A stretch of DNA of 64,000 nucleotides from Desulfobacterales bacterium (GCA_016931455.1 JAFGES010000064.1:13664-77663), one strand, 5' to 3'. Positions 24,556-53,628 are shown, counted from the first letter of the stretch. Program-made: numbers and translations. Notes: a model not told the origin generated them from the sequence alone.

Positions 24556-25398
24556 ATGAAAGATTTTATGTTCAAAAAAATCGTTTCAGGCGGACAAACC
24601 GTGGCTGAACGGGCAGCGCTGGACACTGCAATGAAACTGGGCATTTTGTATGGCGGCTGGATTTTAAAAGGACGGATGACATCGGAAGGCAGACTCCCAT
24701 ACAAATATAAACTAAAGGAAATGCCCGAAAGCAGTTACATCAAGTGTATCGAGAGGAATGTGATTGACTCTGATGGCACTTTGATAATTTCCTATGGAAA
24801 GCTCAACGATCGCACTTATGACGCGCGTAAAATGGCTGTAAAAAATAATCGCCCCCGGCTTCATATTGATCTGAATCAAATGGGCGCCTTTGAAGCGGCC
24901 TCCATTATCAATACTTGGCTTGAGAAATATGCCGTAAAAATCATTCATGTTGTCGGCTCTCAAGCTGACAAAGAGTCTAATATTTATGACAATACGATAA
25001 AAATCCTTGAGGCGGTTTTTTATTTACGTATTATTAAAGCTACTATGGGGCATTTGATCGACACTCAAGTTATAGAAACCGACTCTCAGGCGCCGCAAGA
25101 TCCATTGCCGCCCGGAACGGTTGAGGAAGCGGTTAACCGCTTAATCTCCGAATTGTCACTAAAGGACAAGATCGCTATTGCCGGGATGAGCGCATGGGAA
25201 CTCGGCTATATTCATCCATCTTTGGGAGGATATATCAAAAAAAACTTTGAACTCGATAGCGGAAATCAGATCTTGATATCATCTTGCCGTTTTTTATGTA
25301 GTAAAAATGAACTCAATAGTGATGAAGCCTCGCGTTTAATTATAAAGGCATTATGGAAAAAATTAATTAAAACCCATCGAATCAGAGTTGTGAAATAA
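24556..25398 (+). CDS. YpsA/'molybdenum-carrier' (SLOG superfamily, PF12694-like) domain protein with an uncharacterised ~150-aa C-terminal extension
   Basis: KIVSGGQTVAERAALDTAMKLGILYGGW..KGR...G.LP.KY.L.E.....Y...IERNVIDSDGTLII matches the family signature. The start may be ATG 24568. Confidence 0.7.
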   Translation: MKDFMFKKIVSGGQTVAERAALDTAMKLGILYGGWILKGRMTSEGRLPYKYKLKEMPESSYIKCIERNVIDSDGTLIISYGKLNDRTYDARKMAVKNNRPRLHIDLNQMGAFEAASIINTWLEKYAVKIIHVVGSQADKESNIYDNTIKILEAVFYLRIIKATMGHLIDTQVIETDSQAPQDPLPPGTVEEAVNRLISELSLKDKIAIAGMSAWELGYIHPSLGGYIKKNFELDSGNQILISSCRFLCSKNELNSDEASRLIIKALWKKLIKTHRIRVVK

Positions 25399-30578: not shown

Positions 30579-30763
30579 GTTTAAATGCCATCCTACAGTT
30601 TCCGACTTTGTCCAAGGACCGGCTCGGAAATGCCTGCTTACAGACTGTAATTTTTACGAATCGATACATGAAATCTAATTCAGCGGCGGGGGATAATACG
30701 GATTTTTTTAAAAAAAGCAATATGAATTTCAGCACCTGAGAAAAATTAAAATTGAGCATATAC

Positions 30764-30809
30764 ATTGCATTGCATTATATTGCATTAAATGATAAATTAT
30801 ATATGCAAT
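30764..30809. promoter_or_regulatory. ATTGCAT repeat/palindrome cluster (operator candidate) in a divergent intergenic region
   Basis: ATTGCATTGCATTATATTGCATT, then 16 nt further, ATGCAAT (the inverted copy). Confidence 0.35.
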
Positions 30810-30931
30810 CATACCTAATATTGCGGTTTATATCGATTCCGTACAAATACAAAATTATAAAATTCCGATACATAGACTTTTCAAAAAGCAGGTTATTATC
30901 AACTCCAATATCAGAGGAAAGGAGAAGGGAA

Positions 30932-31252
30932 ATGAATCAGCGCATTTGTGGGAAGTATCTTATTATCTTGTTCAGTTTGATTGTCCTGTTTTTTCCCGTT
31001 TCGGCGACCTTTGGTGAAGAGATCTCCCCATCTCCCATAGCCACCGGAGATTCGAGTACCCCCACGAAAGATCCGGATTTAAAATTGAAACCGCCTATGA
31101 ACTTGAAATGCAGGGTATATCCATCTACCATGCAGAGGAAGAAGTTGCAGAAATCGAAATCAAAAGGGTACAAGACGATATATTCATCTGGTGAGAATCC
31201 GACAGTCTTGCCTTTTCCCCCAGAAAATCAGAACAAAGGAGAACGGAAATGA
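30932..31252 (+). pseudogene. Decayed tandem duplicate of the 5' end of the downstream MscS gene (106 codons, signal-peptide-like N-terminus)
   Basis: The RBS plus the first ~165 nt are ~75% identical to 31234-31412 (MNQRICGKYLIILFSLIVLFFPVSA.. versus MNQRIYGRYFILLSLIVLFFAVSA..). After that the frame loses similarity. The copies are offset by 317 bp. Confidence 0.5.
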
Positions 31253-32517
31253 ATCAGCGAATTTATGGAAGATATTTTATTCTTTTGAGTTTGATTGTTT
31301 TGTTTTTTGCTGTTTCGGCGGTGTTTTGCCAAGAGCTTCCCCCCTCTCCTGTAACCGCCGGAGATCCGAATATCCCGATGGAGAACCTAGATTTAATACT
31401 AAAACCGCTGACCCGGGAGGAATTGATCGTCGAAGCCGATGGATGGCGAGACCTGCTGAAAAAGAAGGTATCGGAAATCAGTATGGAGCAAATTCGGAGT
31501 AAAACCGCTGAAGATGTCGAAAAAGAGACTATTTTAAAACGGATTTCTCAACTTCGAGAAGAACGTACCGGCCTGATTGATCGTTTGAATACCGTTCTTA
31601 AAGCCTTGCTTGCCAAAGGCGGGGAAATAAAAGTTTATGAACAATATGCCAATGCGGTTTCAGGTATCGATATCGGCAGAGAGGACGCCTTTTCCACCTG
31701 GATGGCCATCCAGAGTTGGCTGTTTTCCAAAGAAGGGGGTATCCGCTGGGGGACAAATATCATCAAGTTCATCCTCATCCTGGTTGTTTTTAAAATTTTA
31801 GGCAACATCATTGCAGGGGTGACACGAAGAACACTAAAGAAAGCCAAGCTTTCGGAGTTGCTCAAGGACTTTGTGGCCAATACGGCTCAGAAAATCATGA
31901 TCATCTTGGGATTGATGATCGCCTTGTCCATGCTGGAAGTAAACATCGGGCCCCTTCTAGCCGGTCTCGGGGTCATCGGATTCGTCGTTGGGTTTGCTCT
32001 GCAGAATACCCTTTCCAATTTCGCTGCAGGATTCATGTTGCTGCTATACCGACCGTATGATATCGGTGAGGTCGTCAACGCCGGCGGCGCAATCGGAACG
32101 GTTGATTCCATGAATCTGGTATCCACCACCATTAAAACCCCCGACAACCAAAATGTGATCGTGCCCAACGGCAAAATCTGGGGGGATGTTATTACCAACA
32201 TTACCGGCAATGATATCCGACGCGTCGATTTTGTTTTCGGTATTGGATATGATGACGACATCGCCAAAGCCCAAAGTGTTCTGGAGCAAATCCTCAGCGA
32301 ACACCAAAAGGTTCTGAAAAGCCCTGCACCCCTTATCAAAGTCCATGAACTGGCCGATTCCTCAGTAAATTTTATATGTCGTCCCTGGGCGCGGACATCG
32401 GATTACTGGGATGTGTATTGGGATATCACACGGGCCGTCAAGGAAAGATTTGATGCGGAAGGCATCAGCATTCCATATCCCCAGCAGGATGTACACATAC
32501 ACCAGGTAACCGCCTGA
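31249..32517 (+). CDS. MscS-family mechanosensitive channel
   Basis: GFALQNTLSNFAAGFMLLLYRPYDIGEVV...GTVDSMNLVSTTIKTPDNQNVIVPNGKI is the canonical MscS core. Confidence 0.85.
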   Translation: MNQRIYGRYFILLSLIVLFFAVSAVFCQELPPSPVTAGDPNIPMENLDLILKPLTREELIVEADGWRDLLKKKVSEISMEQIRSKTAEDVEKETILKRISQLREERTGLIDRLNTVLKALLAKGGEIKVYEQYANAVSGIDIGREDAFSTWMAIQSWLFSKEGGIRWGTNIIKFILILVVFKILGNIIAGVTRRTLKKAKLSELLKDFVANTAQKIMIILGLMIALSMLEVNIGPLLAGLGVIGFVVGFALQNTLSNFAAGFMLLLYRPYDIGEVVNAGGAIGTVDSMNLVSTTIKTPDNQNVIVPNGKIWGDVITNITGNDIRRVDFVFGIGYDDDIAKAQSVLEQILSEHQKVLKSPAPLIKVHELADSSVNFICRPWARTSDYWDVYWDITRAVKERFDAEGISIPYPQQDVHIHQVTA

Positions 32518-32561
32518 TAGGATTTTTCAGCTCTTTTCGAATCACCATGCAACAAGCTCAT

Positions 32562-32609
32562 ATGATCGGGAATACTTCTTTTACCAAGAGGTTATTCCCG
32601 ATCATTTTT
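32562..32609 (+). terminator. Rho-independent terminator after the MscS gene
   Basis: 13-bp perfect stem ATGATCGGGAATA / TATTCCCGATCAT followed by a T-run. Confidence 0.7.
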
Positions 32610-32990
32610 AAGTGGTTCGATTAAATGAAATATTTGAAGAATAATTATTCCTACCTTTTCTCACCGGCAATGCGTACAAACCCCTTTGACAAAACTTCTT
32701 CACCGGTATTTTTGCAACCTTTTCCGCATGCATTGATTTTCGAATATATTCCGCTACAATTATGCCTTATGCGACATCGTCGGTCGATTGAGAATTGAGT
32801 TTGTCCAAAGCTTGTTCTCGCCTAAGCGAGGAAACAGTAATTTTGTTTGATGCGAAACGGTGGTTCCGGCTATTTTTATTGACACAAAGAAGGTCTTCTT
32901 TTAGGGAATAATAGATAGTCCAGTGATTTGCTCGGAAGAAAATGATGGAACCGAGATTTGATAGTAATTCCTAAATTCGGGGATTAAACA

Positions 32991-35900
32991 ATGCATGAAA
33001 ATGGAAAGGACAATGATTTCGATCCCTCAAAAGCTGCCAATATCCTGCACCTGTCCGATCTTCATTTCGGCGCCGACAAAGAATCAGACCCCGGTGCCGA
33101 TGCGGAAAAATGGTATGGCCGGCTTGTCGATGATCTCTGCAAAGAACTCGGTTGTGAACGCCTTCAGGCGATAATTCTTTCGGGGGATATCGGCAATTTT
33201 TCCGAGTCGGAGGAATACGAGGCGGCAGAGGTCTTTATAAACAAACTTTGCAAAAAATTCAGCCTGGGCCCCTCACAACTTAGTATTGTTCCTGGAAATC
33301 ACGATCTTAACTGGAAGCTCTCTAAAAATAGCTACCGGTTTCTCTATGAGGAAAATCACGATGAGGCTTTGAAAGAAGGGCATTTTATCAGAGTCAACGA
33401 AGATCTCATCGGTCTCAGGGATGATAATGCTTACAGGAAGCGGTTTGAGCATTTCAGCCGATTCCACGAAACCATCACCGGGACTTCCTATCCCCTTGAT
33501 CCAAATGAACAGGCAATCTTCAGCCATTTATCGGAGCTGAACCTGCTTATTGTGGGTTTTAATTCTTCATGGGAAACGGATCATCATTTCAAGACTAGAA
33601 TCTCCATCAATCCGGATGCCTTTGAATCTGCATTAGATCAGATCCGGGAACGGGAGGAATATAAAAACAGTATCAAATTTGCCGTCTGGCATCATCCTTT
33701 GTCGAGTCCGGGGGATGACCGTCTCAAGGATCACGGGTTTATGCAACGTCTGGCTCAGGCGGAGTTTTGTATTTGCCTCCATGGCCACATCCACAAATCC
33801 GATGCCGGCCTGTACCGATACGATATGGCTGCCGATGGTCGCCGAATCCATGTAATTGGCGCCGGAACTTTCGGTGCGCCGGTAAAAGATTGGACACCAG
33901 GGTACCCGCTGCAATACAATTTACTTCGGCTTTCAGAAAATTCCTTGCGGGTTGAAAGCCGCTGCCGCACGGAAATCAACGGCACGTGGGGCCCGGATCA
34001 TTTGTGGCGGCAGGGTCAGGGAAAGCCCAACTTGCCGTATTACGATATTTCCCTTGCACGTATTGATGCACAAAAACCCAAGCCGCCTCCTCCACCCGAT
34101 TTCGACCTGGAGAACCAAATCCGGGACTATTGCAAAAAGGCGGAGGGCCTGCACGAAAAACTGCCCTTATTCGGCTTCAAAACACGGCTCAAGGTTCCTA
34201 TCGATATTGCGGACATTTATGTTCCCCTTCGGGCCATGATCGACTTGCGGGCAACGGGGCACTCCTATTTCGCCGATGCCGAGGATGCGGAAAATTGTCT
34301 TCGTAAGCAGGGGGTTGATCGTGAAATCTCCGTCCCCGATGCCTTTCGGGAAGCGGAAAAGATGAAACCCCCGCGCCGGGGCATCGTCATCCTTGGGGAT
34401 CCGGGTTCCGGCAAGACCACCCACATGAAACGAATTCTGCTCTGGTGCCTACGCGGTGAACTCAGTCAGATAGGGCTTCCGGAAGACATGATCCCGGTCT
34501 TTTTGCCGCTACGCGAGCTGAAAGATGTCAATAGCGGGCTGGATGCTTTCATCCAGGGCCAGCTCGCTCATCCTCTTCTGGATACACCCAAAGATTTCGG
34601 AAAGCGGTTGTTGGACCGTGGTAGCCTTCTGTTTCTCCTTGACGGCTTGGATGAAGTGGCGGACCAGAATCTACGCAGCAAGGTCTCACGTTGGATCGAG
34701 ACTGCCTTGAAAGTCCATCGCAACTGCAGGTTTGTCGTCACCTGCCGGTTTGCGGGCTATACCGAGCAAGCGCGGCTCGACGCCGATTTTCTAGAGATGC
34801 ATGTCAGACCCCTTAATGAAAATCAGGCCGAAACCTTCATTCGAAACTGGTACCGCATCGTTGAAACCGGGCTTATTTCGGACCCGGTGCAGGCCAAGGC
34901 ATTGGCCTTGGAGAAGGCGGATCATCTGATCGATCGACTCCGTAAGCCTGAATTTCGAGCGCGACGGATCTTTGAAATGACCCGTAACCCCCTGTTGCTT
35001 ACCAATATCTGCCTGGTACACCAGAGCCGGAACAATCTGCCCCAAACCCGTGCGCTTCTTTATGATGAATGCATCGATGTGCTGCTGGAAAAGTGGCGGG
35101 GTGCTATCGGCTTCCAAAGTCGGATCAAAACTCAGGGCGGCCGCCTAGTGCTTCAGCCTGCGGCCTTGTGGATGCACCAGGAAGAGAATCGCAGACGGGC
35201 CTCGGCGGCTGAGCTGTCACCGATTATCGAACCGGCATTGAAAGCCGTGGGTTGGCAGCATGGGTCAGCGTCCGATTTCCTCGAGTTAATTCGGGATGAA
35301 AGCGGCCTGCTGACCGGCTGGAGCGGTGATCAATACGGCTTCATGCACCTGGGCTTTCAGGAATATTTGGCCGCCAGGGAAATTCAGAACCGGGCCTTTC
35401 GCGACCGGAAAATACTTCGAGAATTGGCAAAGCGCTTCGGAGAGAGCTGGTGGCAGGAGGTGACACTGCTCCTTTTGGCATTGGACAACCCCTGTCTTTT
35501 TGCGGAGTTTATGGAGGAAGTGGTCAAATTGTCCGCATTTGCGGATTATACTGAATTTATGGCGATGTGCCTGGAGGAATCATCGGAAAGGACCGTCGAG
35601 CCCTTTATGGAGTTGCTTAAGGCTGAGCCCGGAGAAAATGAAGAGTTTTGGGTTCGGCAGCTTGCGGCGCTACGAATCGTCGAGCGAATGGACAAAACTA
35701 CCCTCGAATCCATGGCATCGAAACTTCGAATGCATCCCTACAGCAAGATCAGGAAATGGTTTGAAACCCGGAACATTGAGACAGGACAGGAGGTCATTCA
35801 GGCAACGCAGGGCGGTTATGAACTTGTTTTTGTCCCGGGCGGCAGGTTCTTGATGGGATCTCCGGCTATGGAGCAAGGGCGTTATGATTGGGAAGGTCCT

Positions 35901-36527
35901 CAACATGAAGTGACCGTGCCTGATTTTTACATAGGCCGTTATCCGGTTACAAACGAGGAATATGGTCGGTTTATCCAAGCTACATCGTATCAAGAACCCG
36001 AATATTGGGGTGATCGTAGATACAACCAGCCCCGGCAGCCGGTTGTGGGGGTGAGTTGGCACGATGCAAAAGCCTTTGCCGAATGGGCCGGTCTGCAGCT
36101 TCCGTCTGAGGCTCAGTGGGAATATGCCTGCCGCGCGGGCACCACCACGCCGTATTACAGCGGAAATTCGGAGACTGATCTTGAGCGTGCCGGATGGTAT
36201 TATCGAAACTCAGGAGACAAATTGCATCCTGTCGGTGAAAAAGAACCCAATAATTTCGGTCTTTATGATATGCACGGCAATGTGTGGGAATGGTGTGAGG
36301 ATCATTGGCATAGCAATTACAAAGATGCACCGATCGATGGCAGTGCCTGGGTGGATCGAAATGAGGGCGGGAACCGGGTCCTTCGCGGCGGCTCGTGGGG
36401 CTACGGTGCCGGGTACTGCCGGACGGCGTCCCGCGTCAGGCGCGGCCCCGACCTCCGGGGCAACGACTACGGGTTCCGGCTTGTCCGCCTTCCAGGTCAC
36501 CGGGCCAGGTGGATGCCGGCCTGCTGA
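32991..36527 (+). CDS. NLR-like STAND NTPase (1178 aa): N-terminal calcineurin-like metallophosphoesterase, central NACHT P-loop NTPase, helical region, C-terminal FGE-sulfatase (C-type-lectin fold) domain
   Basis: MPE motifs LSDLHFG, GDIGN, VPGNHD, WHHP, LHGHIH. Walker A GDPGSGKTT and Walker B LLFLLDGLDEV. FGE motifs FLMGSP, YPVTNEEY, VVGVSWHDA, LPSEAQWEYA, YDMHGNVWEWC, RGGSW, YGFRLVR. Confidence 0.85.
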   Translation: MHENGKDNDFDPSKAANILHLSDLHFGADKESDPGADAEKWYGRLVDDLCKELGCERLQAIILSGDIGNFSESEEYEAAEVFINKLCKKFSLGPSQLSIVPGNHDLNWKLSKNSYRFLYEENHDEALKEGHFIRVNEDLIGLRDDNAYRKRFEHFSRFHETITGTSYPLDPNEQAIFSHLSELNLLIVGFNSSWETDHHFKTRISINPDAFESALDQIREREEYKNSIKFAVWHHPLSSPGDDRLKDHGFMQRLAQAEFCICLHGHIHKSDAGLYRYDMAADGRRIHVIGAGTFGAPVKDWTPGYPLQYNLLRLSENSLRVESRCRTEINGTWGPDHLWRQGQGKPNLPYYDISLARIDAQKPKPPPPPDFDLENQIRDYCKKAEGLHEKLPLFGFKTRLKVPIDIADIYVPLRAMIDLRATGHSYFADAEDAENCLRKQGVDREISVPDAFREAEKMKPPRRGIVILGDPGSGKTTHMKRILLWCLRGELSQIGLPEDMIPVFLPLRELKDVNSGLDAFIQGQLAHPLLDTPKDFGKRLLDRGSLLFLLDGLDEVADQNLRSKVSRWIETALKVHRNCRFVVTCRFAGYTEQARLDADFLEMHVRPLNENQAETFIRNWYRIVETGLISDPVQAKALALEKADHLIDRLRKPEFRARRIFEMTRNPLLLTNICLVHQSRNNLPQTRALLYDECIDVLLEKWRGAIGFQSRIKTQGGRLVLQPAALWMHQEENRRRASAAELSPIIEPALKAVGWQHGSASDFLELIRDESGLLTGWSGDQYGFMHLGFQEYLAAREIQNRAFRDRKILRELAKRFGESWWQEVTLLLLALDNPCLFAEFMEEVVKLSAFADYTEFMAMCLEESSERTVEPFMELLKAEPGENEEFWVRQLAALRIVERMDKTTLESMASKLRMHPYSKIRKWFETRNIETGQEVIQATQGGYELVFVPGGRFLMGSPAMEQGRYDWEGPQHEVTVPDFYIGRYPVTNEEYGRFIQATSYQEPEYWGDRRYNQPRQPVVGVSWHDAKAFAEWAGLQLPSEAQWEYACRAGTTTPYYSGNSETDLERAGWYYRNSGDKLHPVGEKEPNNFGLYDMHGNVWEWCEDHWHSNYKDAPIDGSAWVDRNEGGNRVLRGGSWGYGAGYCRTASRVRRGPDLRGNDYGFRLVRLPGHRARWMPAC
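36366..36497 (+). other. Candidate DGR variable region VR-1 (last 44 conserved codons of the FGE domain)
   Basis: See the first finding: compared with 39264-39395 there are 29 identical codons, and 18 of 20 differences fall at codon positions 1-2. Confidence 0.55.
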
Positions 36528-36530
36528 CCC

Positions 36531-36546
36531 GGACGGAATCCCGTCC
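36531..36546 (+). other. GC hairpin (6-bp stem, 4-nt loop) followed by TTTT, ~32 nt after VR-1. Either a terminator or a DGR target-recognition hairpin.
   Basis: GGACGG-aatc-CCGTCC, then CCGGTTTTAT. Confidence 0.4.
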
Positions 36547-36657
36547 CCGGTTTTATCTGGGGCGAAAACGCAACACCCTGCCGGGGCTGGTAGCTTGAGC
36601 GGATGCCTGGTGAAGGTCCCGACGGGTTTTTACACCATAAAAAATAAGTAGGTAAAT

Positions 36658-39419
36658 ATGGAAGATAAGAATCTTATTACCATTATCGTTGCTTTAGGTG
36701 TCGCGATTTTTTTGTGGGTGCTGACCCAAATATGCCAATTGGCCATGAAGGATGTATACAATTACCTGAAGGGATTGATAAAAAGAAAATCCCATAATAC
36801 AATCTCAACTAAATCCTCTGAAAACGATGTTCACATTCATCAGGGTGACGAAAAGGGTTGGGAAGAATCTAACCTAAAGCGTTACCTAAGGCGGCTTATT
36901 GCAAAATGTGATCCACTGGATCTTGCAGTGACGGAAGAGACATGCCAAACGTCTATCTCGGCGAATGATTTACCACCTATCCGGGTTTACCTCAAATACC
37001 CGGAACGTCGATCCGGTCAGTCGATAAAAGAAGCCATTGAACAAAGGGATAAAGAGGATGGTTTAAAAGAAGGAAAACAAATCCCTATCCAGGCCGTCGA
37101 GGCTACAGTCGCTGTTTCAAGGATGGTCATGCTCGGGCGGCCCGGGGGCGGCAAGAGCACCCTTGTCAATTATCTTGCCGCTCAGTTGGCCCAAAGACGG
37201 CTAGGCGAGCAGGAAAAAGAAGCTGGTTTGCTCGCCTGGCCTCCTGAAGATAAGCCGCTTCCGGTCAGAATTATTCTACGACAAATGGCTGCCTGGATTG
37301 GGGAAGAGGTGCAAAAAGGCACCGAAGGGCTTGTCTGGAGCTATCTGGAACACCTGCTTGGCGAATGGGGCTGTGCTGATTTTATATCTTATTGCAAACA
37401 TATTTTGGATGAAGAAGGCGGTATCATATTCTTTGACGGGTTGGATGAAGTGGGGGAGGCAGAAGAAAACCGCAAGCGAAGCTTAATCTTGCAGGCGGTG
37501 GAAGATTTTGCCAAACCATTGAAAAAGTGCCGTGTAATTGTGACCTGTAGAGAATATTCCTATAAAGAAAAAGAAAATGTCGGAGGTACACACTGGCGCC
37601 TGCCGGAGGCTGAATTTCCGGTAACCGAACTTGACTTGTTCCGGGATGAGCAGATCAAATCATTTTCACGTACCTGGTATCGGATCACGGGAAATCGAAA
37701 AGGGTGGGCTCCGGAAAAGTGTGATGCGGAAGCTAATGCTTTTTGCCAAGGCATTATGTCATCACCCAATCTCAGATCACTTGGGGAAAACCCGCTTCTT
37801 TTGACACTCATGGCTCAAATTCACGGTAGACTGGGATATCTGCCCAAGGACCGCGCAGATCTTTATGAGAAGGTGGTAAAGCTTCTGCTGGCACATTGGG
37901 AAAACCGAATTATCAGGGATGTCAATGGCACTTGTCGCATAGAACCTTGGATTGTCATGCGCCTGGGAGTGCCTGTCGATACGCTCAGGGTGCCCCTGGA
38001 ACGGGTAGCGATTTACGCCCATGAGCAGCAGGAAAATGCGCGTACAGACAAACTTACCTGCGCCGACATTCCTCGGGAAGATCTCCGAAGAGAACTGGCT
38101 GCAAACCTGAAAAATGATTTAAACAAAGCTGAAAAATTTATCGAGTATATAGAAAACCGCGCCGGACTTTTGCAGGCTGTTGATAACCGAATATTCAGGT
38201 TTCCGCACCGCACTTTTCAGGAGTATCTGACAGCCACCGGTATTATGCGAACAAGCAACCCTATAGACATGCTCATCGGACGATTGCGTCGTGATCCATC
38301 TTGGTGGCAGGAGGTGTTTTTGTTGGCCGCAGGTTCTACTCGCAACACACCGTTAAATATCTATTATCTTTTGGATGCGTTGTTGCCGGAAGATCCCGAT
38401 GCTGTTAATTTAACACCTGAAAATGTAAGAATGGCTGAAATTGCTGCCAGGGCGATTTACGAAACGGATTTTATGGATAGGTGGAAGAAGAAATTCGGGA
38501 TGATAAAGATAATGCCAAAAAATTTTCAAAAATTCATCGCCGAATTCAAAAATGGCTATCGACGGCAATGACCGCTGATACTGTGCTGACCCCCAAACAA
38601 CGCTGTGATGCGGGTAATGCGCTTAACTGGGTGAAAGATCCCCGATTCGATCCGGGCATATGGTATCTGCCGAATGACGAAAATCTGGGATTTGTGGATA
38701 TTCCAGCAGGTTCGTTTAAGATGGGAAGCGATAAAAATAGGGATTCTAAAGCCGCTGATAATGAATTCCCGCAACACATCGTTAAATTATCGTCTTATGC
38801 TATCGGCAAATATCCGGTTACTGTGGCTCAATACCGGGTGTTTGCCGAAGAGACAGAACGCAAATTGGATGAAAATTGGCAAAAATACAACCGCTACGAT
38901 AACCACCCCGTTGTGAAGGTTAACTGGCCTGATGGCATGGCCTATTGCAAGTGGATGACCGGTAAAATGAATAACATGGGGAAAGCCTGGATCATCACTT
39001 TGCCGACCGAAGCCCAATGGGAAAAAGCGGCCAGAGGAAATGACGCATGGATATATCCGTAGGGGGATGAACCGGATCCCAATAAAGCAAATTATGATAA
39101 AACAGGCATCAATACGACTACTCCGGTAGGATGCTTTTCCGGCGGAAAAAGTCCGTATGAAGTTTTGGATATGGCGGGCAATGTATGGGAGTGGTGCCGG
39201 GACTGGTATGCTAAAGATTATTATTATAAAAGTCCGGAAAAAGATCCTATCGGTCCCGATGATGGCGGGAACCGGGTCGTACGCGGCGGCGCGTGGTACT
39301 ACGATGCCGGGTACTGCCGGTCGGCGTACCGCGACGGGGACGTCCCCGACTTCCGGGACGGCATCTACGGGTTCCGGCTTGTTCGCCTTCCAGGTCAGCC
39401 TGGTGAGCCAAGCAAGTAA
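36658..39419 (+). pseudogene. Second NLR-like gene (N-terminal TM helix, NACHT, helical region, FGE-sulfatase domain), disrupted by a frame change within 38478-38571 and an in-frame TAG at 39060-39062
   Basis: Track pieces 36658..38571, 38481..39062 and 39165..39419. Walker A GRPGGGKST and Walker B IIFFDGLDEV. The FGE domain is split exactly at the conserved YPWGDE motif (reads YP*GDE, so TGG became TAG). The last two pieces share one frame. Confidence 0.7.
39264..39395 (+). other. Candidate DGR variable region VR-2
   Basis: Sister of 36366-36497. It retains A at more of the variable sites (TAC, GAT, TAC, GAC, GAC, GAC, ATC). Confidence 0.55.
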
Positions 39420-39441: not shown

Positions 39442-39505
39442 ATCGATTGAATCATCCGTACGGAGCACTTCGGGACGAAGGCGGAGTCGGATGATTCATA
39501 TCGAT
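39442..39505. other. Long imperfect inverted repeat (17-18 bp arms, one bulge) enclosing a nested 5-bp hairpin, 47 nt after VR-2
   Basis: ATCGATTGAATCATCCG ... CGGATGATTCATATCGAT. The loop contains CTTCG-gga-CGAAG. Confidence 0.6.
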
Positions 39506-48151: not shown

Positions 48152-49132
48152 GTGATCATTGAGGAATTAAACCAACGGGTCGAAGAGAAGCATCTGCTGG
48201 TTAACAGCATCAAAAACGAAATCGGTAAAATTCTCGTAGGCCAGCGGAATCTGATAGAAAGTATGCTGATCGGCCTTTTTACCAAAGGCCATATTCTGAT
48301 CGAAGGCGTTCCGGGTTTAGCCAAAACCAGTGCCGTTATGGCCCTCGCCGGCACTGTCCATGCCGATTTTAAGCGCATCCAGTTCACCCCCGACCTGCTT
48401 CCGGCTGATTTGATCGGTACGGAAGTCTTTCGACCCAAAACCAGTGATTTTACGATAAAAAAAGGCCCTATTTTTCACAATATCATTTTAGCGGATGAAA
48501 TCAATCGGGCACCTTCCAAAGTACAGTCCGCATTGCTTGAGGCCATGCAGGAACGACAGGTGACTATTGGAGAGTCGACCTTCCCGCTTTCTGATCCATT
48601 CCTGGTGATGGCGACTCAAAATCCAATCGAGCAGGAGGGAACCTATCCACTGCCTGAAGCCCAGGTCGACCGATTCATGCTCAAAGTGATTATCGACTAC
48701 CCGGATAAAACCGAAGAAAAAGAAATCATGAGGCGCGTGGGCTTTGAAAATGCTTCTACAGTTAAAGAGGTTATTCACCCGGCTCAACTGAATGAAATTG
48801 TTGCGTTGATAAAAGAGATTTACATGGATGAAAAGCTCAAAGATTATATTGTCGATATCGTCTTTGCTACGCGCAAACCGGCTGATTACAAGATCGATAT
48901 ATGCGACTATGTTCAGTTCGGCGCTTCACCCCGGGCGACGATCTTTTTGAGCCTGGCTGCCAGGGCCTATGCTTTTCTGCAGGGTAGAGCCTATGTAACC
49001 CCACAGGATATCAAAACCGTGGCTCCAAGTGTCCTGCGTCATCGAATCATTTTGTCGTATGAAGCCGAGGCGGAAGATATTACAACGGAGCAAATTATCG
49101 GTCATGTGTTTGATTCCATCGAGGTTCCCTAA
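48152..49132 (+). CDS. moxR: MoxR-family AAA+ ATPase
   Basis: GHILIEGVPGLAKT Walker A, ILADEINRA Walker B and VMATQNPIEQEGTYPLPEAQ.DRF. Confidence 0.9.
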   Translation: MIIEELNQRVEEKHLLVNSIKNEIGKILVGQRNLIESMLIGLFTKGHILIEGVPGLAKTSAVMALAGTVHADFKRIQFTPDLLPADLIGTEVFRPKTSDFTIKKGPIFHNIILADEINRAPSKVQSALLEAMQERQVTIGESTFPLSDPFLVMATQNPIEQEGTYPLPEAQVDRFMLKVIIDYPDKTEEKEIMRRVGFENASTVKEVIHPAQLNEIVALIKEIYMDEKLKDYIVDIVFATRKPADYKIDICDYVQFGASPRATIFLSLAARAYAFLQGRAYVTPQDIKTVAPSVLRHRIILSYEAEAEDITTEQIIGHVFDSIEVP

Positions 49133-49138
49133 AATAAA

Positions 49139-50017
49139 ATGCTTTCGCCGGAATTTATTAAAAAAATAAAAAAGATCCATATCAAAAGCGGTCGTCTCGT
49201 CAATACCATGATGGCCGGCCAATATAAGTCCGTTTTCCGAGGTTCGGGAATTGAGTTTGAGGAAGTTCGAGAATACTGTCCGGGAGATGAGGTCAAAAGC
49301 ATTGATTGGAAAGTTTCGGCACGTCTGGGACGCCCCTTTGTCAAACTCTACAGGGAAGAACGTGAGTTGATGGTAATGCTGCTCGTGGACATGAGCGCTT
49401 CAGGATGCTTTGGAACCACCGATAACGTTAAAAAAGAAACTGCTGCAGAGGTTGCTTCGATTCTAGCATTTAATGCCATCCGTAATAACGACAAAGTCGG
49501 TGCGATTTTATTTACCGACCGGGTTGAAAAATATATTCCGCCCCAAAAAGGATCCGCTCATGTTTGGCGGGTCATCAAAGAAATCTTTGCATTTGAACCC
49601 CAACATAAAGCCACCGATATTGAAAATGCAATCCGTTATTTCGGCAGAGTTTGCCGGAAGAAAACCGTTTCCTTTCTAATTTCCGATTTTCTGTGTCAAG
49701 GCTATTTGCGGCAGCTTAAAATTGCCGGAAAAAAGCATGAACTTATCGGTGTCCTCCTATCTGATCCGGGGGAATTTAATTTGCCGGAGGCCGGTATTTT
49801 TGCGGTAGAGGATTTTGAAACCGGTGAGCATTATTTTTTCGATGCATCGGATAAAAAAACGCGGCAAGCATTTGAAAAACAGAAAAAGGATGAGTACCGG
49901 CAAACGCTTGAAATGCTCAAAAGCGCAGATATTGATTCCATTGAAGTCAGCACGGATTGCTCGGCAGCAGAGGCCCTGACTAAATATTTTCGATACCGGG
50001 AAAAAAGGATGCGATGA
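49139..50017 (+). CDS. DUF58 (vWA-like) protein, MoxR partner
   Basis: G.YKSVFRGSGIEFEEVREY.PGDEV..IDWKVSAR signature. Confidence 0.85.
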   Translation: MLSPEFIKKIKKIHIKSGRLVNTMMAGQYKSVFRGSGIEFEEVREYCPGDEVKSIDWKVSARLGRPFVKLYREERELMVMLLVDMSASGCFGTTDNVKKETAAEVASILAFNAIRNNDKVGAILFTDRVEKYIPPQKGSAHVWRVIKEIFAFEPQHKATDIENAIRYFGRVCRKKTVSFLISDFLCQGYLRQLKIAGKKHELIGVLLSDPGEFNLPEAGIFAVEDFETGEHYFFDASDKKTRQAFEKQKKDEYRQTLEMLKSADIDSIEVSTDCSAAEALTKYFRYREKRMR

Positions 50018-50691
50018 TGCTTCGTGTGCGTATGCTTATTTTGTTCGTCATGCTTTGCGGTTTAGGCAGCCCGCTTTTCGCCCGGACAAATCCGATGACA
50101 AGCCCGACGGACGCAAATCAGCTCATTGAAAATGTAGGTATGACTGAAAAAGGGGCGGTTGAAACTCAACCGCTGATGACCGATATCCATGACATTAAGC
50201 CGCCTGAAAAGCTTGGAATCAATCCGGCATTTTTACAGTATACGCTCTATGGTTTGATCGGTGTTTTGATTGCGGCATTTGTGGCTGCGGCTATTTATTA
50301 TTACCGGAAAAAACGCGGCAAAAAAGAAATCAAAACCGTTGTGCCCACCTTAGCACCGGATGAAGCGGCATTCAGGGCTTTGGATGAGTTGCTTGAACTA
50401 TTAAATTCGGACGGCAAAAAATTTTATTTCCGGATTTCAGCCGTCCTAAGAGGATATATTCAGCAGCGGTTTGACATCGATGCTTTGGAGATGACCACGG
50501 AAGAGCTGCTCCCGAGGGTCGGCGAAATGAAACTGGAAGATGTATTAAAAAAGGGCTTTCGAGAGTTTATATATACGAGTGATCCGATTAAATTTGCCGG
50601 ACGATTTGTCGACAAAGAAAAGATGCACGGGCATCTTGAGTTCGTGAGAGAATTTGTAGAAAAAACAACACCGGCTATAAGGTATAAGTGA
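50014..50691 (+). CDS. DUF4381-like membrane protein of the Bat operon
   Basis: Operon position, a single TM segment after the DIHDIKPP motif, and a 4-nt overlap with the upstream gene. Confidence 0.65.
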   Translation: MMLRVRMLILFVMLCGLGSPLFARTNPMTSPTDANQLIENVGMTEKGAVETQPLMTDIHDIKPPEKLGINPAFLQYTLYGLIGVLIAAFVAAAIYYYRKKRGKKEIKTVVPTLAPDEAAFRALDELLELLNSDGKKFYFRISAVLRGYIQQRFDIDALEMTTEELLPRVGEMKLEDVLKKGFREFIYTSDPIKFAGRFVDKEKMHGHLEFVREFVEKTTPAIRYK

Positions 50692-50780
50692 AAAAATATG
50701 AGCTGTCGATCGATGCAGCCATTAAAATGGTAGGTTTTTGTCGATAGTTCAAAAAGCAAAGATATAATTTTAGCATAAAT

Positions 50781-51779
50781 ATGTTTCGATTCGCATCGCC
50801 TTATTTCTTTCTGGTTCTCGCCGTTATACCAACGGCGCTTTATTATCAACGACGCAGACGGATTTATCCGGTGATGCGTGTATCCGGAACGTTTGCCCTT
50901 CGGGGCGTTCAGAAGTCGGTTTTCATAAAAATACGATGGCTTATGCCTCTTCTGAAATATACGGCATTCGGCTTGATGGTCATTGCCATGGCCCGGCCCC
51001 AGTGGGGCACCCGGCAAGTGAATATCTTGACGGAAGGTATCAATATCATTCTTGCCGTTGATGTATCCGAGAGCATGGCGGCGCTTGATTTCAAGCTTAA
51101 CGGCAAAATCGTCAACCGTCTGGAAGCCGTTAAAGGAGTAATCCGGAACTTTATCATGAAAAGAAACGGGGACAGAATCGGCATGGTGGTTTTTGGCTCC
51201 AATGCCTATACTCAGGTGCCCCTGACACGCGATTATACAACCATAGTCTCTATCCTCGAGCGCCTTAAAATCGGTGCAGCCGGTAAAAGTACGGCCATCG
51301 GTGATGCCGTCGGCATTTCACTCAAGAGGCTGGAAGATTTGAAAAGCGTGTCCAATATCATCATATTATTGACCGATGGACGTAGCAATACCGGTGAACT
51401 GTCTCCGTCGACGGCAACTGAAATTGCGGTTCAAAAAAAGGTCAAGATTTATACGATCGGGGTAGGCGGCAAAGGTCAGGCTCCGTTTCTGGTGAACCAT
51501 CCCTTGTTGGGTGAACGATATATCTACCAGCAGGTCGATATTGATGAAGATACATTGCAAGATATTTCTTCCAAAACCGGCGGATTATATTTCAGGGCCG
51601 AAAATACCGAAGGTTTACAAAAAATTTACGATACCATCGACACCCTGGAAAAAACCGAAGTTAAAGTCAAGACATTTGCGGAATATCGGGAACTTTATCG
51701 ATATTTTTTGATTCCGGCTTTCACCATCATGATTTTTTGGATCATTCTCATCAATACACGTTTCTTGAGGGTACCATGA
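50781..51779 (+). CDS. batA: BatA (TM plus von Willebrand factor A domain)
   Basis: ILAVDVSESM MIDAS motif, LLTDGRSN, and N- and C-terminal TM helices. Confidence 0.85.
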   Translation: MFRFASPYFFLVLAVIPTALYYQRRRRIYPVMRVSGTFALRGVQKSVFIKIRWLMPLLKYTAFGLMVIAMARPQWGTRQVNILTEGINIILAVDVSESMAALDFKLNGKIVNRLEAVKGVIRNFIMKRNGDRIGMVVFGSNAYTQVPLTRDYTTIVSILERLKIGAAGKSTAIGDAVGISLKRLEDLKSVSNIIILLTDGRSNTGELSPSTATEIAVQKKVKIYTIGVGGKGQAPFLVNHPLLGERYIYQQVDIDEDTLQDISSKTGGLYFRAENTEGLQKIYDTIDTLEKTEVKVKTFAEYRELYRYFLIPAFTIMIFWIILINTRFLRVP

Positions 51780-53566: not shown

Positions 53567-53628
53567 TGTTCCCGGTTCGTTTGGAAATGTACAGGCCGCA
53601 AGATTTATAGAAAGCTTTAATATATAAA

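What the first reader, a model, noticed from the sequence alone, without database searches (positions are those of the whole stretch)
32991..36527. Metallophosphoesterase-NACHT-FGE/sulfatase-fold protein: an NLR-like candidate conflict/immunity gene
A single 1178-aa ORF combines three parts. The first is a complete calcineurin-like phosphoesterase motif set (DLH, GDIGN, GNHD, HH, GHIH), which fits an effector role. The second is a NACHT-type P-loop NTPase (GDPGSGKTT, LDGLDEV), which fits a switch. The third is a C-terminal FGE-sulfatase/C-type-lectin domain, which fits a sensor. Bacterial NACHT/STAND proteins with N-terminal effectors and C-terminal sensor domains are established antiphage or conflict modules, and FGE-type domains have been noted as STAND sensor modules in comparative-genomic work. 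I do not know of any experimental description of this exact effector-sensor combination, especially coupled to apparent DGR diversification. The locus also looks more GC-rich than its flanks and sits between unrelated housekeeping genes, which is island-like.
Basis: partly seen in the sequence, partly recalled or inferred. Interest (0 to 1): 0.7.

Follow-up and report, generated by a model that had tools for sequence, protein, structure and literature searches.

The report
NLR-like sensor gene with dead diversifier
This is an intact bacterial NLR-like gene (phosphodiesterase effector, NACHT switch, lectin-fold sensor) of a type already catalogued as a target of diversity-generating retroelements, but here the retroelement's reverse transcriptase has been cut out, so the sensor looks frozen.

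Summary
The 1178-aa ORF at 32991-36527 and all three of its domains are real. Pfam, two AlphaFold models and Foldseek support a metallophosphodiesterase (GpdQ/Rv0805-like), a NACHT module (NLRC4/NLRP3-like) and an FGE-sulfatase/C-type-lectin domain (PvdO/TvpA-like). The FGE catalytic Cys pair is broken.

The last ~46 codons are a DGR variable region. A second copy ends a neighbouring paralog that is frameshifted and carries a nonsense codon. The two copies differ mainly where related template repeats have adenines (p=2e-8).

The window holds no reverse transcriptase, HRDC gene or template repeat. In orthologous loci these sit between the two targets. Here the variable region runs straight into the structured RNA that normally follows the template repeat. 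I read this as a deletion scar from VR x TR recombination.

The gene belongs to a class already described by comparative genomics (Kaur 2020, Kibby 2022/23, Doré 2024), and at least 38 database clusters share the exact architecture. It is a new member of a known but experimentally untested kind. Immune function is inferred, not shown. A reverse transcriptase elsewhere in the MAG, or a misassembly, cannot be excluded.

The parts
32991..36527 (+). Target 1: intact 1178-aa Metallophos-NACHT-CLec (FGE-sulfatase fold) NLR-like gene
   Evidence: ORF and translation. Pfam. 100% identical to an NCBI protein of a Desulfobacterales MAG, with full-length orthologs at 46-71% identity.
33039..33797 (+). 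N-terminal calcineurin-like metallophosphodiesterase domain (residues 17-269), the predicted effector
   Evidence: Pfam PF00149. All metal-ligand motifs are invariant in a 61-sequence alignment. AF2 pLDDT 87.5. Foldseek hits to YydB, GpdQ, Rv0805, Lmo2642 and SMPDL3A at E 5e-15 to 1e-9, with Mre11 weaker. PADLOC PDC-S60 and a CBASS effector profile hit this domain.
34383..34853 (+). NACHT NTPase core (residues 465-621; Walker A K475, Walker B D551-G-L-D-E555)
   Evidence: Pfam NACHT E 2.4e-17. The model of residues 380-1178 aligns over about 560-580 columns with NLRC4, NLRP3, NOD2 and NLRP14 (E 3e-14 to 1e-10).
34854..35819 (+). Helical NLR-type region between NACHT core and sensor (residues 622-943)
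   Evidence: All-helical in the AF2 model and included in the NLRC4/NLRP3 structural alignments.
35820..36488 (+). C-terminal FGE-sulfatase / C-type-lectin-fold domain (residues 944-1166), the predicted ligand sensor; not a catalytic FGE
   Evidence: Pfam E 2.8e-61. PDB sequence hits PvdO 2e-37 and TvpA 7e-31. Foldseek PvdO target-normalised TM-score 0.81. The FGE segment GGSFLCHESYC aligns to GGSWGYGAGYC, so Tyr1138 replaces the first catalytic Cys.
36361..36499 (+). VR-like copy c1 (residues 1124-1170), with TR-type sequence at its 3' end
   Evidence: 139-nt repeat, 85% identical to c2. A-depleted: 12 A against 25-27 in real TRs. The c1/c2 differences fall on columns where related TRs have adenine. 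The 3' end reads CCAGGTCAC, which is VR-type GGT followed by TR-type CAC.
36495..36630 (+). Scar: the structured RNA element that normally lies 3' of the DGR template repeat ('Sp-like'), here directly after the VR and overlapping the stop codon
   Evidence: Aligns with the TR 3' flank of L002, not with VR flanks. In L002, L006, L007 and L008 the same element follows RT-TR. RNAalifold finds 43 pairs, 11 with compensatory changes. A covariance model built without the window hits at 114 bits, E 7e-21. The window copy has 32 WC, 8 GU and 3 broken pairs, against 37-40 WC in the others.
36658..38571 (+). Target 2, part 1: TM helix plus a NACHT-like NTPase and helical region (637-aa ORF)
   Evidence: Translation. 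The Pfam NACHT hit is 26.3 bits, just under the 26.7 cutoff. 32% identical to the second DGR target of L002.
38481..39419 (+). Target 2, part 2: FGE-sulfatase domain in another frame (frameshift within 38502-38535), interrupted by TAG at 39060-39062 in place of the Trp of YPWG. I read target 2 as a pseudogene.
   Evidence: Translation. Pfam on both halves, E 1.5e-27 and 1e-22. tblastn frame switch.
39259..39397 (+). VR-like copy c2, with a VR-type 3' flank
   Evidence: The flank CCAGGTCAGCCTGGTGAGCCAAGCAAGT matches the flank of all four VR-like copies in Desulfosarcina ovata.
39442..39505 (+). Long hairpin about 45 nt downstream of c2, in the position where L002 VRs also carry a long hairpin; absent after c1
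   Evidence: MFE folds. A role in target recognition is inferred by analogy with PMC3240598, whose title and abstract I saw but whose text I did not read.

Best explanation
The ORF encodes a cytoplasmic tripartite STAND/NLR-like protein. The C-terminal C-type-lectin-fold domain binds a ligand through a surface encoded by a DGR variable region. Ligand binding is proposed to release the NACHT NTPase for nucleotide-dependent oligomerisation, which would bring the N-terminal binuclear metallophosphodiesterases together and activate them. The effector would then hydrolyse a phosphodiester substrate, either nucleotide-derived signals or nucleic acid, stopping growth or an invader.

The gene was once one of two targets of an HRDC-type DGR laid out as target1-HRDC-RT-TR-Sp-target2. 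In this genome, recombination between the VR of target 1 and the TR removed HRDC, RT and TR. That left the VR fused to the TR's 3' structured RNA. Target 2 has since decayed, so the sensor specificity of target 1 is now fixed.

Shown here: the domain composition and folds, the broken FGE site, the VR footprint, the absence of RT/HRDC/TR from the 64 kb, the Sp-like scar, and the lesions in target 2. Inferred: the ligand, oligomerisation, the effector substrate, the immune role, and the deletion mechanism.
For: - **Domains and folds:**
- **Active-site motifs:** the phosphoesterase motifs are intact and invariant across 61 homologs.
- **FGE site:** the Cys pair is incomplete, and the window has no sulfatase gene.
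- **Effector modularity:** the same phosphoesterase module occurs alone or fused to EAD1, HEAT repeats, TIR or SAVED in filamentous cyanobacteria and Desulfobacterales. In NACHT-FGE relatives the N-terminus is swapped for TIR, DUF4062 (PF13271) and other modules.
- **Defence context:** ortholog P0020 lies among Eco57I RM, HigB, HEPN/MNT and AAA_15/21 genes.
- **VR footprint:** c1 and c2 differ at 15 of 27 columns where the TR of L006 has A, against 5 of 98 elsewhere (Fisher p=1.7e-8). Both copies are A-depleted.
- **Family-wide variability:** column entropy is 3.08 bits at TR-adenine codons, against 0.92 at other VR codons (p=3e-7).
- **Intact relatives:** L002 and L007 show target1-HRDC-RT-TR-Sp-target2 with clean A-only TR/VR differences.
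- **Missing machinery:** the window has no YxDD motif in any frame, no tblastn trace of RT or HRDC, and no third repeat copy.
- **Scar:** the Sp-like element sits directly after c1.
- **Target 2 lesions:**
- **Independent example:** a VR::Sp fusion without an RT also occurs in two other MAGs, L004 and L005, whose target is only 42% identical.
Against: - No experiment exists for any FGS-type NACHT protein or for this effector.
- Only 64 kb of a 113.7-kb contig of a MAG is visible, so an RT and TR elsewhere could still act in trans. Doré et al. describe 'degenerate' DGR loci, with machinery missing or pseudogenized, alongside one complete locus of the same class.
- The Sp-like copy is only mildly decayed.
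- The target-2 frameshift lies in a region of A-runs, and the TAG lies in a G-run, so both could be sequencing errors.
- Most orthologs (L001, L003, L009, L010, L011) also lack an adjacent RT yet show no scar. RT-less members are therefore common and need not arise by this route.
- The fold points to the cNMP/glycerophosphodiesterase clade but does not fix the substrate.
Confidence: 0.6

Rival explanations
1. The locus is a 'degenerate' DGR locus that is still serviced in trans. A complete HRDC-RT-TR locus of the same lineage elsewhere in the genome would keep diversifying one or both VRs.
For: Remote and degenerate loci are documented for this DGR lineage (PMC10907252). Only part of the MAG is visible. 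c2 keeps a VR-type 3' flank and a downstream hairpin. c1 and c2 are 95% identical at non-adenine columns, so homing was evolutionarily recent.
Against: c1 has lost the VR-type 3' flank, which is replaced by TR-flank sequence. The only copy with an intact flank, c2, sits in a pseudogene. c1 and c2 differ at 5 non-adenine columns, including one in the otherwise invariant 3' stretch. A trans RT cannot be seen or excluded.
Confidence: 0.2
2. Assembly artefact. The true genome has target1-HRDC-RT-TR-Sp-target2, and the assembler jumped from VR1 into the TR's shared 3' stretch, dropping about 1.8 kb.
For: VR and TR share an adenine-free identical stretch. Hypervariable VRs fragment metagenome graphs. 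L006 is a 1.9-kb orphan contig carrying just RT-TR-Sp, which shows that such pieces do assemble separately.
Against: The junction reads GGTCAC, VR-type then TR-type within 3 nt. A k-mer jump inside the longer shared stretch would give GCTCAC, as seen in L004. The shared stretch is shorter than typical final k-mers. The Sp copy carries its own substitutions that weaken the stems. The same type of junction appears in two separately binned MAGs for another locus.
Confidence: 0.08
3. Not immunity. The protein would be a STAND-regulated cyclic-nucleotide or other phosphodiesterase used for self or kin recognition, or for environmental signalling, in an aggregate-forming Desulfobacterales bacterium.
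For: The nearest folds of known activity are the phosphodiesterases GpdQ and Rv0805 (Lmo2642 also ranks high; its activity is from my own knowledge), closer than the Mre11 nucleases; the top hit, YydB, is uncharacterised. Sources annotate homologs as CpdA. A cNMP-binding-domain gene lies 1 kb downstream. Kaur et al. class this module with nucleotide-signal-degrading domains.
Against: The module is shuffled with TIR, SAVED and EAD adaptors typical of conflict systems. There is PADLOC similarity to candidate defence genes and a defence-island context for an ortholog. Hypervariable DGR sensors suit an open-ended set of ligands. The cNMP-binding neighbour is not conserved in ortholog loci.
Confidence: 0.12
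4. A genuine formylglycine-generating or EgtB/PvdO-type enzyme, as the NCBI product name implies (SUMF1/EgtB/PvdO family nonheme iron enzyme).
For: Strong Pfam FGE-sulfatase hit. The source's automatic name says so.
Against: The first catalytic Cys is replaced by Tyr1138, and that position lies inside the hypervariable VR. The best structural matches are the non-FGE members PvdO and TvpA. The window has no sulfatase gene. The domain is fused to NACHT and an effector.
Confidence: 0.01

Closest known systems
DGR 'clade 5D' STAND-CLec targets of multicellular bacteria (Doré et al. 2024, PMC10907252)
   Same: Usually two neighbouring targets, each with a central NACHT/nSTAND NTPase and a single C-terminal CLec domain carrying the VR. 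N-terminal effectors include TIR or peptidase. One Thiohalocapsa target carries PF00149, NACHT and CLec domains. Degenerate loci lacking machinery are reported.
   Different: Here the effector-NACHT-CLec protein has no vWA domain. The host is a Desulfobacterales MAG. The accessory gene in intact relatives is HRDC-type. The local RT/TR is deleted, leaving a VR::TR-flank chimera, a route not mentioned in the passages of that paper that I searched (they attribute degradation of DGR components to transposons and MITE-like repeats). I did not place the relatives' RTs in their phylogeny.
Bacterial NACHT proteins, 'antigen-receptor type, FGS domain' (Kibby et al., bioRxiv 10.1101/2022.07.19.500537)
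   Same: Tripartite layout of N-terminal effector, NACHT with the D[GAS]hDE Walker B signature, and a single C-terminal FGS domain proposed to be diversified by a DGR RT. Calcineurin-like phosphoesterases are listed among the effectors.
   Different: [quoted passage not shown] No FGS-type or phosphoesterase-type member has a reported phenotype in the papers I read.
Calcineurin-superfamily phosphoesterase effectors of NTP-dependent conflict systems (Kaur et al. 2020, PMC7159879)
   Same: The same module is found with EAD1 and other adaptor domains, TIR and SAVED in Moorena, Nostoc, Calothrix and Desulfobacterales. It is predicted there to act as a nucleotide phosphodiesterase.
   Different: Here it is fused directly to the NACHT switch rather than recruited through an EAD. 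The substrate is unknown in both cases.
Treponema denticola TvpA and Bordetella phage Mtd (prototype DGR variable proteins)
   Same: CLec/FGE-type fold with the VR at the extreme C-terminus. TvpA is the second-best PDB sequence hit (E 6.6e-31) and a structural hit.
   Different: From my own knowledge, those are surface or tail-fibre binding proteins without an NTPase or effector, and they have a functional adjacent RT/TR.
Animal NLRs (NLRC4, NLRP3, NOD2)
   Same: The NACHT module with its helical domains superposes over about 560-580 columns (E 3e-14 to 1e-10). The effector-switch-sensor logic is the same.
   Different: The sensor is a lectin-fold domain rather than LRRs. The effector is an enzyme rather than a CARD/PYD adaptor. 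Sequence identity is 15-18%.
PADLOC candidate PDC-S60 and CBASS 'Effector Endonuclease' profile PDLC00736
   Same: The N-terminal phosphoesterase domain matches both (E 2.5e-26 and 3.2e-14).
   Different: The best-scoring PDC-S60 stretch covers only positions 2-244 of the 1027-position profile (a second stretch was reported but not shown). No PADLOC Avs or NACHT-type model matched the whole protein, so this gene is not a member of a listed system.

Membership tests
Bacterial NACHT / NLR-like STAND NTPase | NACHT module with Walker A and Walker B carrying the D[GAS]hDE signature | tested here: met
   Pfam NACHT E 2.4e-17. GDPGSGKTT at 469 and D551-G-L-D-E555.
Bacterial NACHT / NLR-like STAND NTPase | NBD plus helical/winged-helix extension with an NLR-like fold | tested here: met
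   AF2 pLDDT 87.4. Foldseek hits to NLRC4, NLRP3 and NOD2 over about 560-580 columns, E down to 3e-14.
Bacterial NACHT / NLR-like STAND NTPase | Tripartite architecture: N-terminal effector, C-terminal sensor | tested here: met
   Metallophos 17-269, NACHT 465-621, FGE-sulfatase 944-1166.
Bacterial NACHT / NLR-like STAND NTPase | Protection against phage or other invaders | not testable with these tools
   Only indirect evidence: effector modularity, PADLOC similarity, and a defence-island context for ortholog P0020.
DGR target (variable protein) | C-terminal CLec/FGE-fold domain ending in a VR | tested here: met
   The repeat 36361-36499 ends 28 nt before the stop codon.
DGR target (variable protein) | Cognate TR differing from the VR only at adenines | tested here: inconclusive
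   No TR in the window. Against heterologous TRs, c1/c2 differences fall on adenine columns (15/27 against 5/98, p=1.7e-8), and both copies are A-depleted. The genome's own TR was not seen.
DGR target (variable protein) | DGR-type RT and accessory gene (Avd/HRDC) in the locus | tested here: not met
   No YxDD motif in six frames and no tblastn hit for the RT or HRDC of L002, L006 or L007. Both are present in orthologous loci L002 and L007.
DGR target (variable protein) | VR-type 3' boundary (IMH-like) and downstream hairpin | tested here: not met
   c1 ends GGTCAC and continues into the TR-flank element. c2 keeps GGTCAG plus the conserved flank and a hairpin.
Formylglycine-generating enzyme (SUMF1) | Catalytic Cys pair (human C336/C341) | tested here: not met
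   FGE GGSFLCHESYC aligns to GGSWGYGAGYC, so Tyr1138 replaces the first Cys and Cys1143 is kept. The human residue numbers are from my own knowledge.
Formylglycine-generating enzyme (SUMF1) | Sulfatase substrate gene nearby | tested here: not met
   No sulfatase domain among the 23 window ORFs scanned with Pfam. Smaller ORFs were not all scanned.
Calcineurin-like metallophosphoesterase | Five metal-binding motifs (DxH, GD, GNH[DE], H, GH) and the fold | tested here: met
   Motifs at residues 23, 65, 102, 234 and 265 are invariant in 61 homologs. Pfam is above the cutoff. Foldseek hits GpdQ and Rv0805 at E about 1e-11.
Known defence systems in PADLOC (Avs, bNACHT-type, PDC-S60) | Full-length match to a system's profile | tested here: not met
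   The best-scoring PDC-S60 stretch covers only the N-terminal domain (profile positions 2-244 of 1027); the profile range of a second stretch was not shown. No Avs or NACHT-type profile was reported.

The most novel reading that the evidence does not exclude
VR x TR recombination may be a recurrent, built-in way for these DGRs to switch themselves off. It would excise HRDC-RT and fix a selected receptor variant in an otherwise intact NLR-like gene. Because the chimera places the frozen VR directly upstream of a still-foldable TR-flank RNA at the 3' end of the target mRNA, that VR could itself serve as a new template if an RT of the same lineage is supplied in trans. That would amount to updating the template to a selected variant.
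Probability: 0.12. Interest if true: 0.6.

Novelty: new member of a known kind. Interest (0 to 1): 0.35.

Why it matters
DGR-diversified NACHT-lectin proteins have been proposed as bacterial analogues of antigen receptors, but none has been tested. This locus provides a complete, apparently functional Metallophos-NACHT-CLec gene whose variable region is no longer a moving target, which could make it a convenient member for biochemistry (ligand search, effector substrate). The VR::TR-flank scar, also seen independently in another Desulfobacteraceae lineage, points to a simple route by which DGRs are lost and 'orphan' lectin-fold NLRs arise. The covarying RNA element 3' of the TR is a candidate functional part of HRDC-type DGR RNAs. 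For annotation, the NCBI name 'SUMF1/EgtB/PvdO family nonheme iron enzyme' is misleading for this family.

Tried and rejected
1. I first took c2 (39259-39397) to be the TR of c1. I rejected this because the mismatches are not adenine-specific in either direction and both copies are A-depleted.
2. I searched for the genome's own TR. A degenerate VR pattern found nothing in genome contigs, although it matches both window copies. The exact protein is not in the contig index. The source MAG could not be inspected beyond the window.
3. The metagenome scan with the TR-flank motif returned one locus of the intact type, too few for a census.
4. Rfam has no family for the TR-flank element or anything else in 36.2-39.7 kb.
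5. Promoter and terminator consensus scans of 32.3-39.7 kb were not above the shuffled background.
6. A PDB sequence search with the N-terminal domain gave only marginal hits; the fold search was needed.
7. A literature search for YydB/YydD, the top fold hit, gave nothing informative.
8. I looked for the small HetE-N-like ORF that precedes or is fused to several orthologs. None is present in 32518-32990, and the upstream ORFs of L001 and L002 gave no significant Pfam hit.
9. I checked whether the closest ortholog locus (L001) has HRDC downstream. It has no hit.
10. The two genes after the D. ovata ortholog are not HRDC or RT.

Full report
**Observation**

The ORF at 32991-36527 (+) is real and encodes 1178 aa. 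Pfam gives three domains:
- Metallophos at 17-269 (28.3 bits, cutoff 21.5)
- NACHT at 465-621 (E 2.4e-17)
- a full-length FGE-sulfatase domain at 944-1166 (E 2.8e-61)

The locus 32991-39419 has the highest GC of any 6.4-kb stretch of the window: 0.506 against a mean of 0.437 (sd 0.038), with flanks at 0.409 and 0.445. It lies between an MscS channel gene and an FNR-like oxidoreductase, a cNMP-binding protein, MeaB and methylmalonyl-CoA mutase.

**Folds**

An AlphaFold2 model of residues 1-350, built from 61 aligned sequences, has pLDDT 87.5 and pTM 0.89. Its best PDB matches are B. subtilis YydB (E 5e-15), glycerophosphodiesterase GpdQ, Rv0805, Lmo2642 and SMPDL3A. Mre11 nucleases match several orders of magnitude more weakly. 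All metal-ligand residues are invariant in the alignment. The effector is therefore probably an active binuclear phosphodiesterase, but its substrate is not determined.

A model of residues 380-1178 has pLDDT 87.4. It matches NLRC4, NLRP3, NOD2 and NLRP14 over about 560-580 columns (E 3e-14 to 1e-10). It also matches PvdO (target-normalised TM-score 0.81), FGEs and T. denticola TvpA over the last ~260-290 residues.

In the HMMER alignment to Thermomonospora FGE, the segment GGSFLCHESYC aligns with GGSWGYGAGYC. Tyr1138 replaces the first copper-binding Cys, and only Cys1143 remains. No sulfatase gene is in the window.

**DGR footprint**

The last 139 nt of the FGE domain (36361-36499, copy c1) recur at 39259-39397 (copy c2) with 85% identity, although the rest of the two genes is far more diverged.

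c2 ends a second gene that is visibly damaged. A TM-NACHT ORF at 36658-38571 is followed by an FGE-sulfatase domain in another frame, with the frame switch inside 38502-38535. That domain is interrupted by TAG at 39060-39062, where the family motif YPWG has Trp.

c2 is not the template of c1: the mismatches are not adenine-specific either way, and both copies are A-poor. c1 has 12 A and c2 has 15 A in the 125-nt core. Genuine template repeats have 25-27 and the VRs of an intact relative have 6-8.

Projected onto the closest genuine TR I found (L006), 15 of the 27 adenine columns differ between c1 and c2, against 5 of 98 other columns (Fisher p=1.7e-8). Across 59 family members, VR codons with a TR adenine at position 1 or 2 have 3.08 bits of column entropy. 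Other VR codons have 0.92 bits and the rest of the domain 1.16 bits (p=3e-7). Both copies are therefore variable regions written from one adenine-rich template.

**Where is the retroelement?**

The window has none of the machinery:
- no YxDD motif in six frames
- no tblastn trace of the RT or HRDC proteins of relatives, all E>1
- no third repeat copy

The protein is 100% identical to an NCBI entry from a Desulfobacterales MAG on a 113.7-kb contig. I could not reach the rest of that genome.

Orthologous loci show what is missing. In L002 (66% identical ortholog) and L007 the order is Metallophos-NACHT-FGE, HRDC, RT, TR, then a second NACHT-FGE target. Their TR/VR differences fall almost only at adenines: 18 and 20 A sites for the two L002 VRs, plus 2 C sites in the 3' boundary.

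The 135 nt that follow c1 in the window (36495-36630) do not resemble VR flanks. They align with the sequence that follows the TR in L002, L006, L007 and L008. That element folds into a conserved multi-hairpin structure with 43 pairs, 11 of them with compensatory changes. A covariance model built without the window sequence finds it at 114 bits, E 7e-21. Rfam has no such family.

c1 ends CCAGGTCAC, which is VR-type GGT followed by TR-type CAC. c2 keeps the VR-type CCAGGTCAG plus a flank shared with all four VR-like copies in Desulfosarcina ovata, and it has a long downstream hairpin.

The simplest reading is a recombination between VR1 and the TR in their adenine-free 3' stretch. This would have excised HRDC, RT and most of the TR and left a VR::TR-flank chimera. 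The last nine residues of the protein (RARWMPAC plus the preceding His) are read from former non-coding RNA, but the Pfam domain is complete.

A second example occurs in two other Desulfobacteraceae MAGs (L004 and L005). There an FGE gene only 42% identical in the aligned region has its VR fused to the same element with no RT. The window's copy of the element is slightly weakened, with 32 Watson-Crick, 8 G-U and 3 broken pairs against 37-40 Watson-Crick pairs elsewhere. That fits relaxed constraint but is not strong evidence.

**Caveats on 'frozen'**
- An RT and TR elsewhere in the genome could act in trans. Doré et al. describe degenerate DGR loci, with machinery missing or pseudogenized, grouped by TR-VR match with one complete locus of the same class.
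- A metagenome misassembly could drop the RT module. However, a k-mer jump would be expected to give GCTCAC rather than the observed GGTCAC.
- The target-2 lesions lie in homopolymer contexts and could be sequencing errors.

I put about 0.6 on a true local loss with a fixed VR in target 1, about 0.2 on continued trans diversification, and just under 0.1 on an artefact.

Most other orthologs also lack an adjacent RT but have no scar. RT-less members are therefore common and arise in more than one way.

**Function**

The N-terminal module occurs alone or fused to EAD1 and other effector-associated domains, HEAT repeats, TIR or SAVED in Moorena, Nostoc, Calothrix, Fischerella and Desulfobacterales. 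In NACHT-FGE relatives the same N-terminal position is occupied by TIR, DUF4062 (PF13271), PNP_UDP (PF01048) or adaptor domains. This is the effector shuffling typical of conflict systems.

PADLOC's candidate PDC-S60 and a CBASS effector profile match the domain. Ortholog P0020 sits among Eco57I RM, HigB, HEPN/MNT and AAA_15/21 genes.

I therefore favour the following model: ligand capture by the lectin-fold surface, NACHT oligomerisation, proximity activation of the phosphodiesterase, and growth arrest. Only the parts list is shown here; every step of the mechanism is inferred. A non-immune signalling role (a cNMP phosphodiesterase under STAND control) remains possible, at about 0.12.

**Comparison with the literature**

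Each element, and essentially the combination, is already described:
- Kaur et al. 2020 (PMC7159879) describe FGS domains linked to DGRs and calcineurin-type phosphoesterase effectors.
- Kibby et al. (10.1101/2022.07.19.500537) define an 'antigen receptor type' of bacterial NACHT with a single FGS domain, probably diversified by a DGR RT. They list calcineurin-like phosphoesterases among the effectors.
- Doré et al. 2024 (PMC10907252) show a DGR lineage whose loci commonly have two NACHT/nSTAND-CLec targets, include a target with PF00149, NACHT and CLec domains, and include degenerate loci.
- A 2026 preprint catalogues FGE-sulfatase sensors among defence-associated STANDs.

None of these papers, in the parts I read, reports an experiment on an FGS-type member. 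At least 38 of the 120 best database clusters carry all three Pfam domains, in Desulfosarcina ovata, Desulfococcaceae and unnamed metagenome bins; a Ca. Scalindua japonica homolog aligns over 98% of the query, but its precomputed Pfam list lacks PF00149.

**Verdict**

This is a new member of a known, experimentally untested kind. The added value here is the evidence that the diversifier has been excised, the recurrent VR::TR-flank scar, and the covarying RNA element 3' of the TR. Interest 0.35.

Noticed in passing
window 36495-36630; L002 15405-15538; L006 349-483(-); L007 731-865(-); L008 315-450: A roughly 135-nt GC-rich structured RNA element lies immediately 3' of the template repeat in HRDC-type DGRs of Desulfobacterales. 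It has 43 predicted pairs, 11 with compensatory changes, and no Rfam family. It may be the counterpart of the spacer/priming region of the Bordetella phage DGR RNA; that comparison is from my own knowledge and was not tested.
   Followed up: partly
L004 1-1333 and L005 (same sequence, opposite strand): Two other Desulfobacteraceae MAGs carry an FGE-domain gene whose VR runs directly into the TR-flank element with no RT. It is followed by a 780-aa Walker-A protein with no Pfam hit, a PD-(D/E)XK nuclease and an AAA ATPase. This looks like an independent example of the same scar.
   Followed up: partly
L003 (Desulfosarcina ovata AP021879.1, 4896971-4920690): A cluster of four FGE-domain genes with VR-like ends, two of them split into a P-loop ORF plus an FGE ORF. 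They are interspersed with a Y1 transposase and several 80-300-nt repeat families, and no RT lies within 10 kb. This looks like a transposon-shaped, RT-less target array.
   Followed up: partly
window 3894-18423 (- strand): Cluster with a phage-tail-sheath-like protein (14348-15430), a 1405-aa NHL-repeat protein (3894-8111) and several large ORFs without Pfam hits. It may be an extracellular contractile injection system or a tailocin.
   Followed up: no
window 30907-31094 vs 31224-31408: The ribosome-binding site, start and first ~60 codons of the MscS gene are duplicated in tandem (73-81% identity). This gives a truncated upstream paralog inside ORF 30752-31252.
   Followed up: no
window 24556-25398: Gene with a circularly permuted YpsA SLOG domain plus DUF6794. 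From my own knowledge, SLOG domains are often tied to nucleotide signalling or conflict systems; I did not examine it further.
   Followed up: no
window 48152-55368: MoxR (AAA_3, with a weaker bpMoxR match), a vWA-TPR BatA/B-like protein and BatD. This looks like a Bat aerotolerance-type operon rather than a MoxR-vWA ternary conflict system, but I did not analyse it.
   Followed up: no
window 39442-39505: A long, near-perfect inverted repeat (about 17-bp stems) lies about 45 nt after the second VR-like copy. L002 VRs have a different long hairpin at the same relative position.
   Followed up: partly
L011 (JGI 3300027536 contig, around ortholog P0020): The ortholog lies in a dense defence island: an SLFN/AlbA_2-HATPase protein, an SMC_N/AAA_15/AAA_21 ATPase, an Eco57I-type RM, a HigB toxin and a HEPN/nucleotidyltransferase pair.
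   Followed up: no
window 38481-39419 vs 36658-38571: The FGE half of target 2 is 53% identical to the second target of L002, while its NACHT half is only 32% identical. This suggests domain-wise mosaicism of these targets.
   Followed up: no
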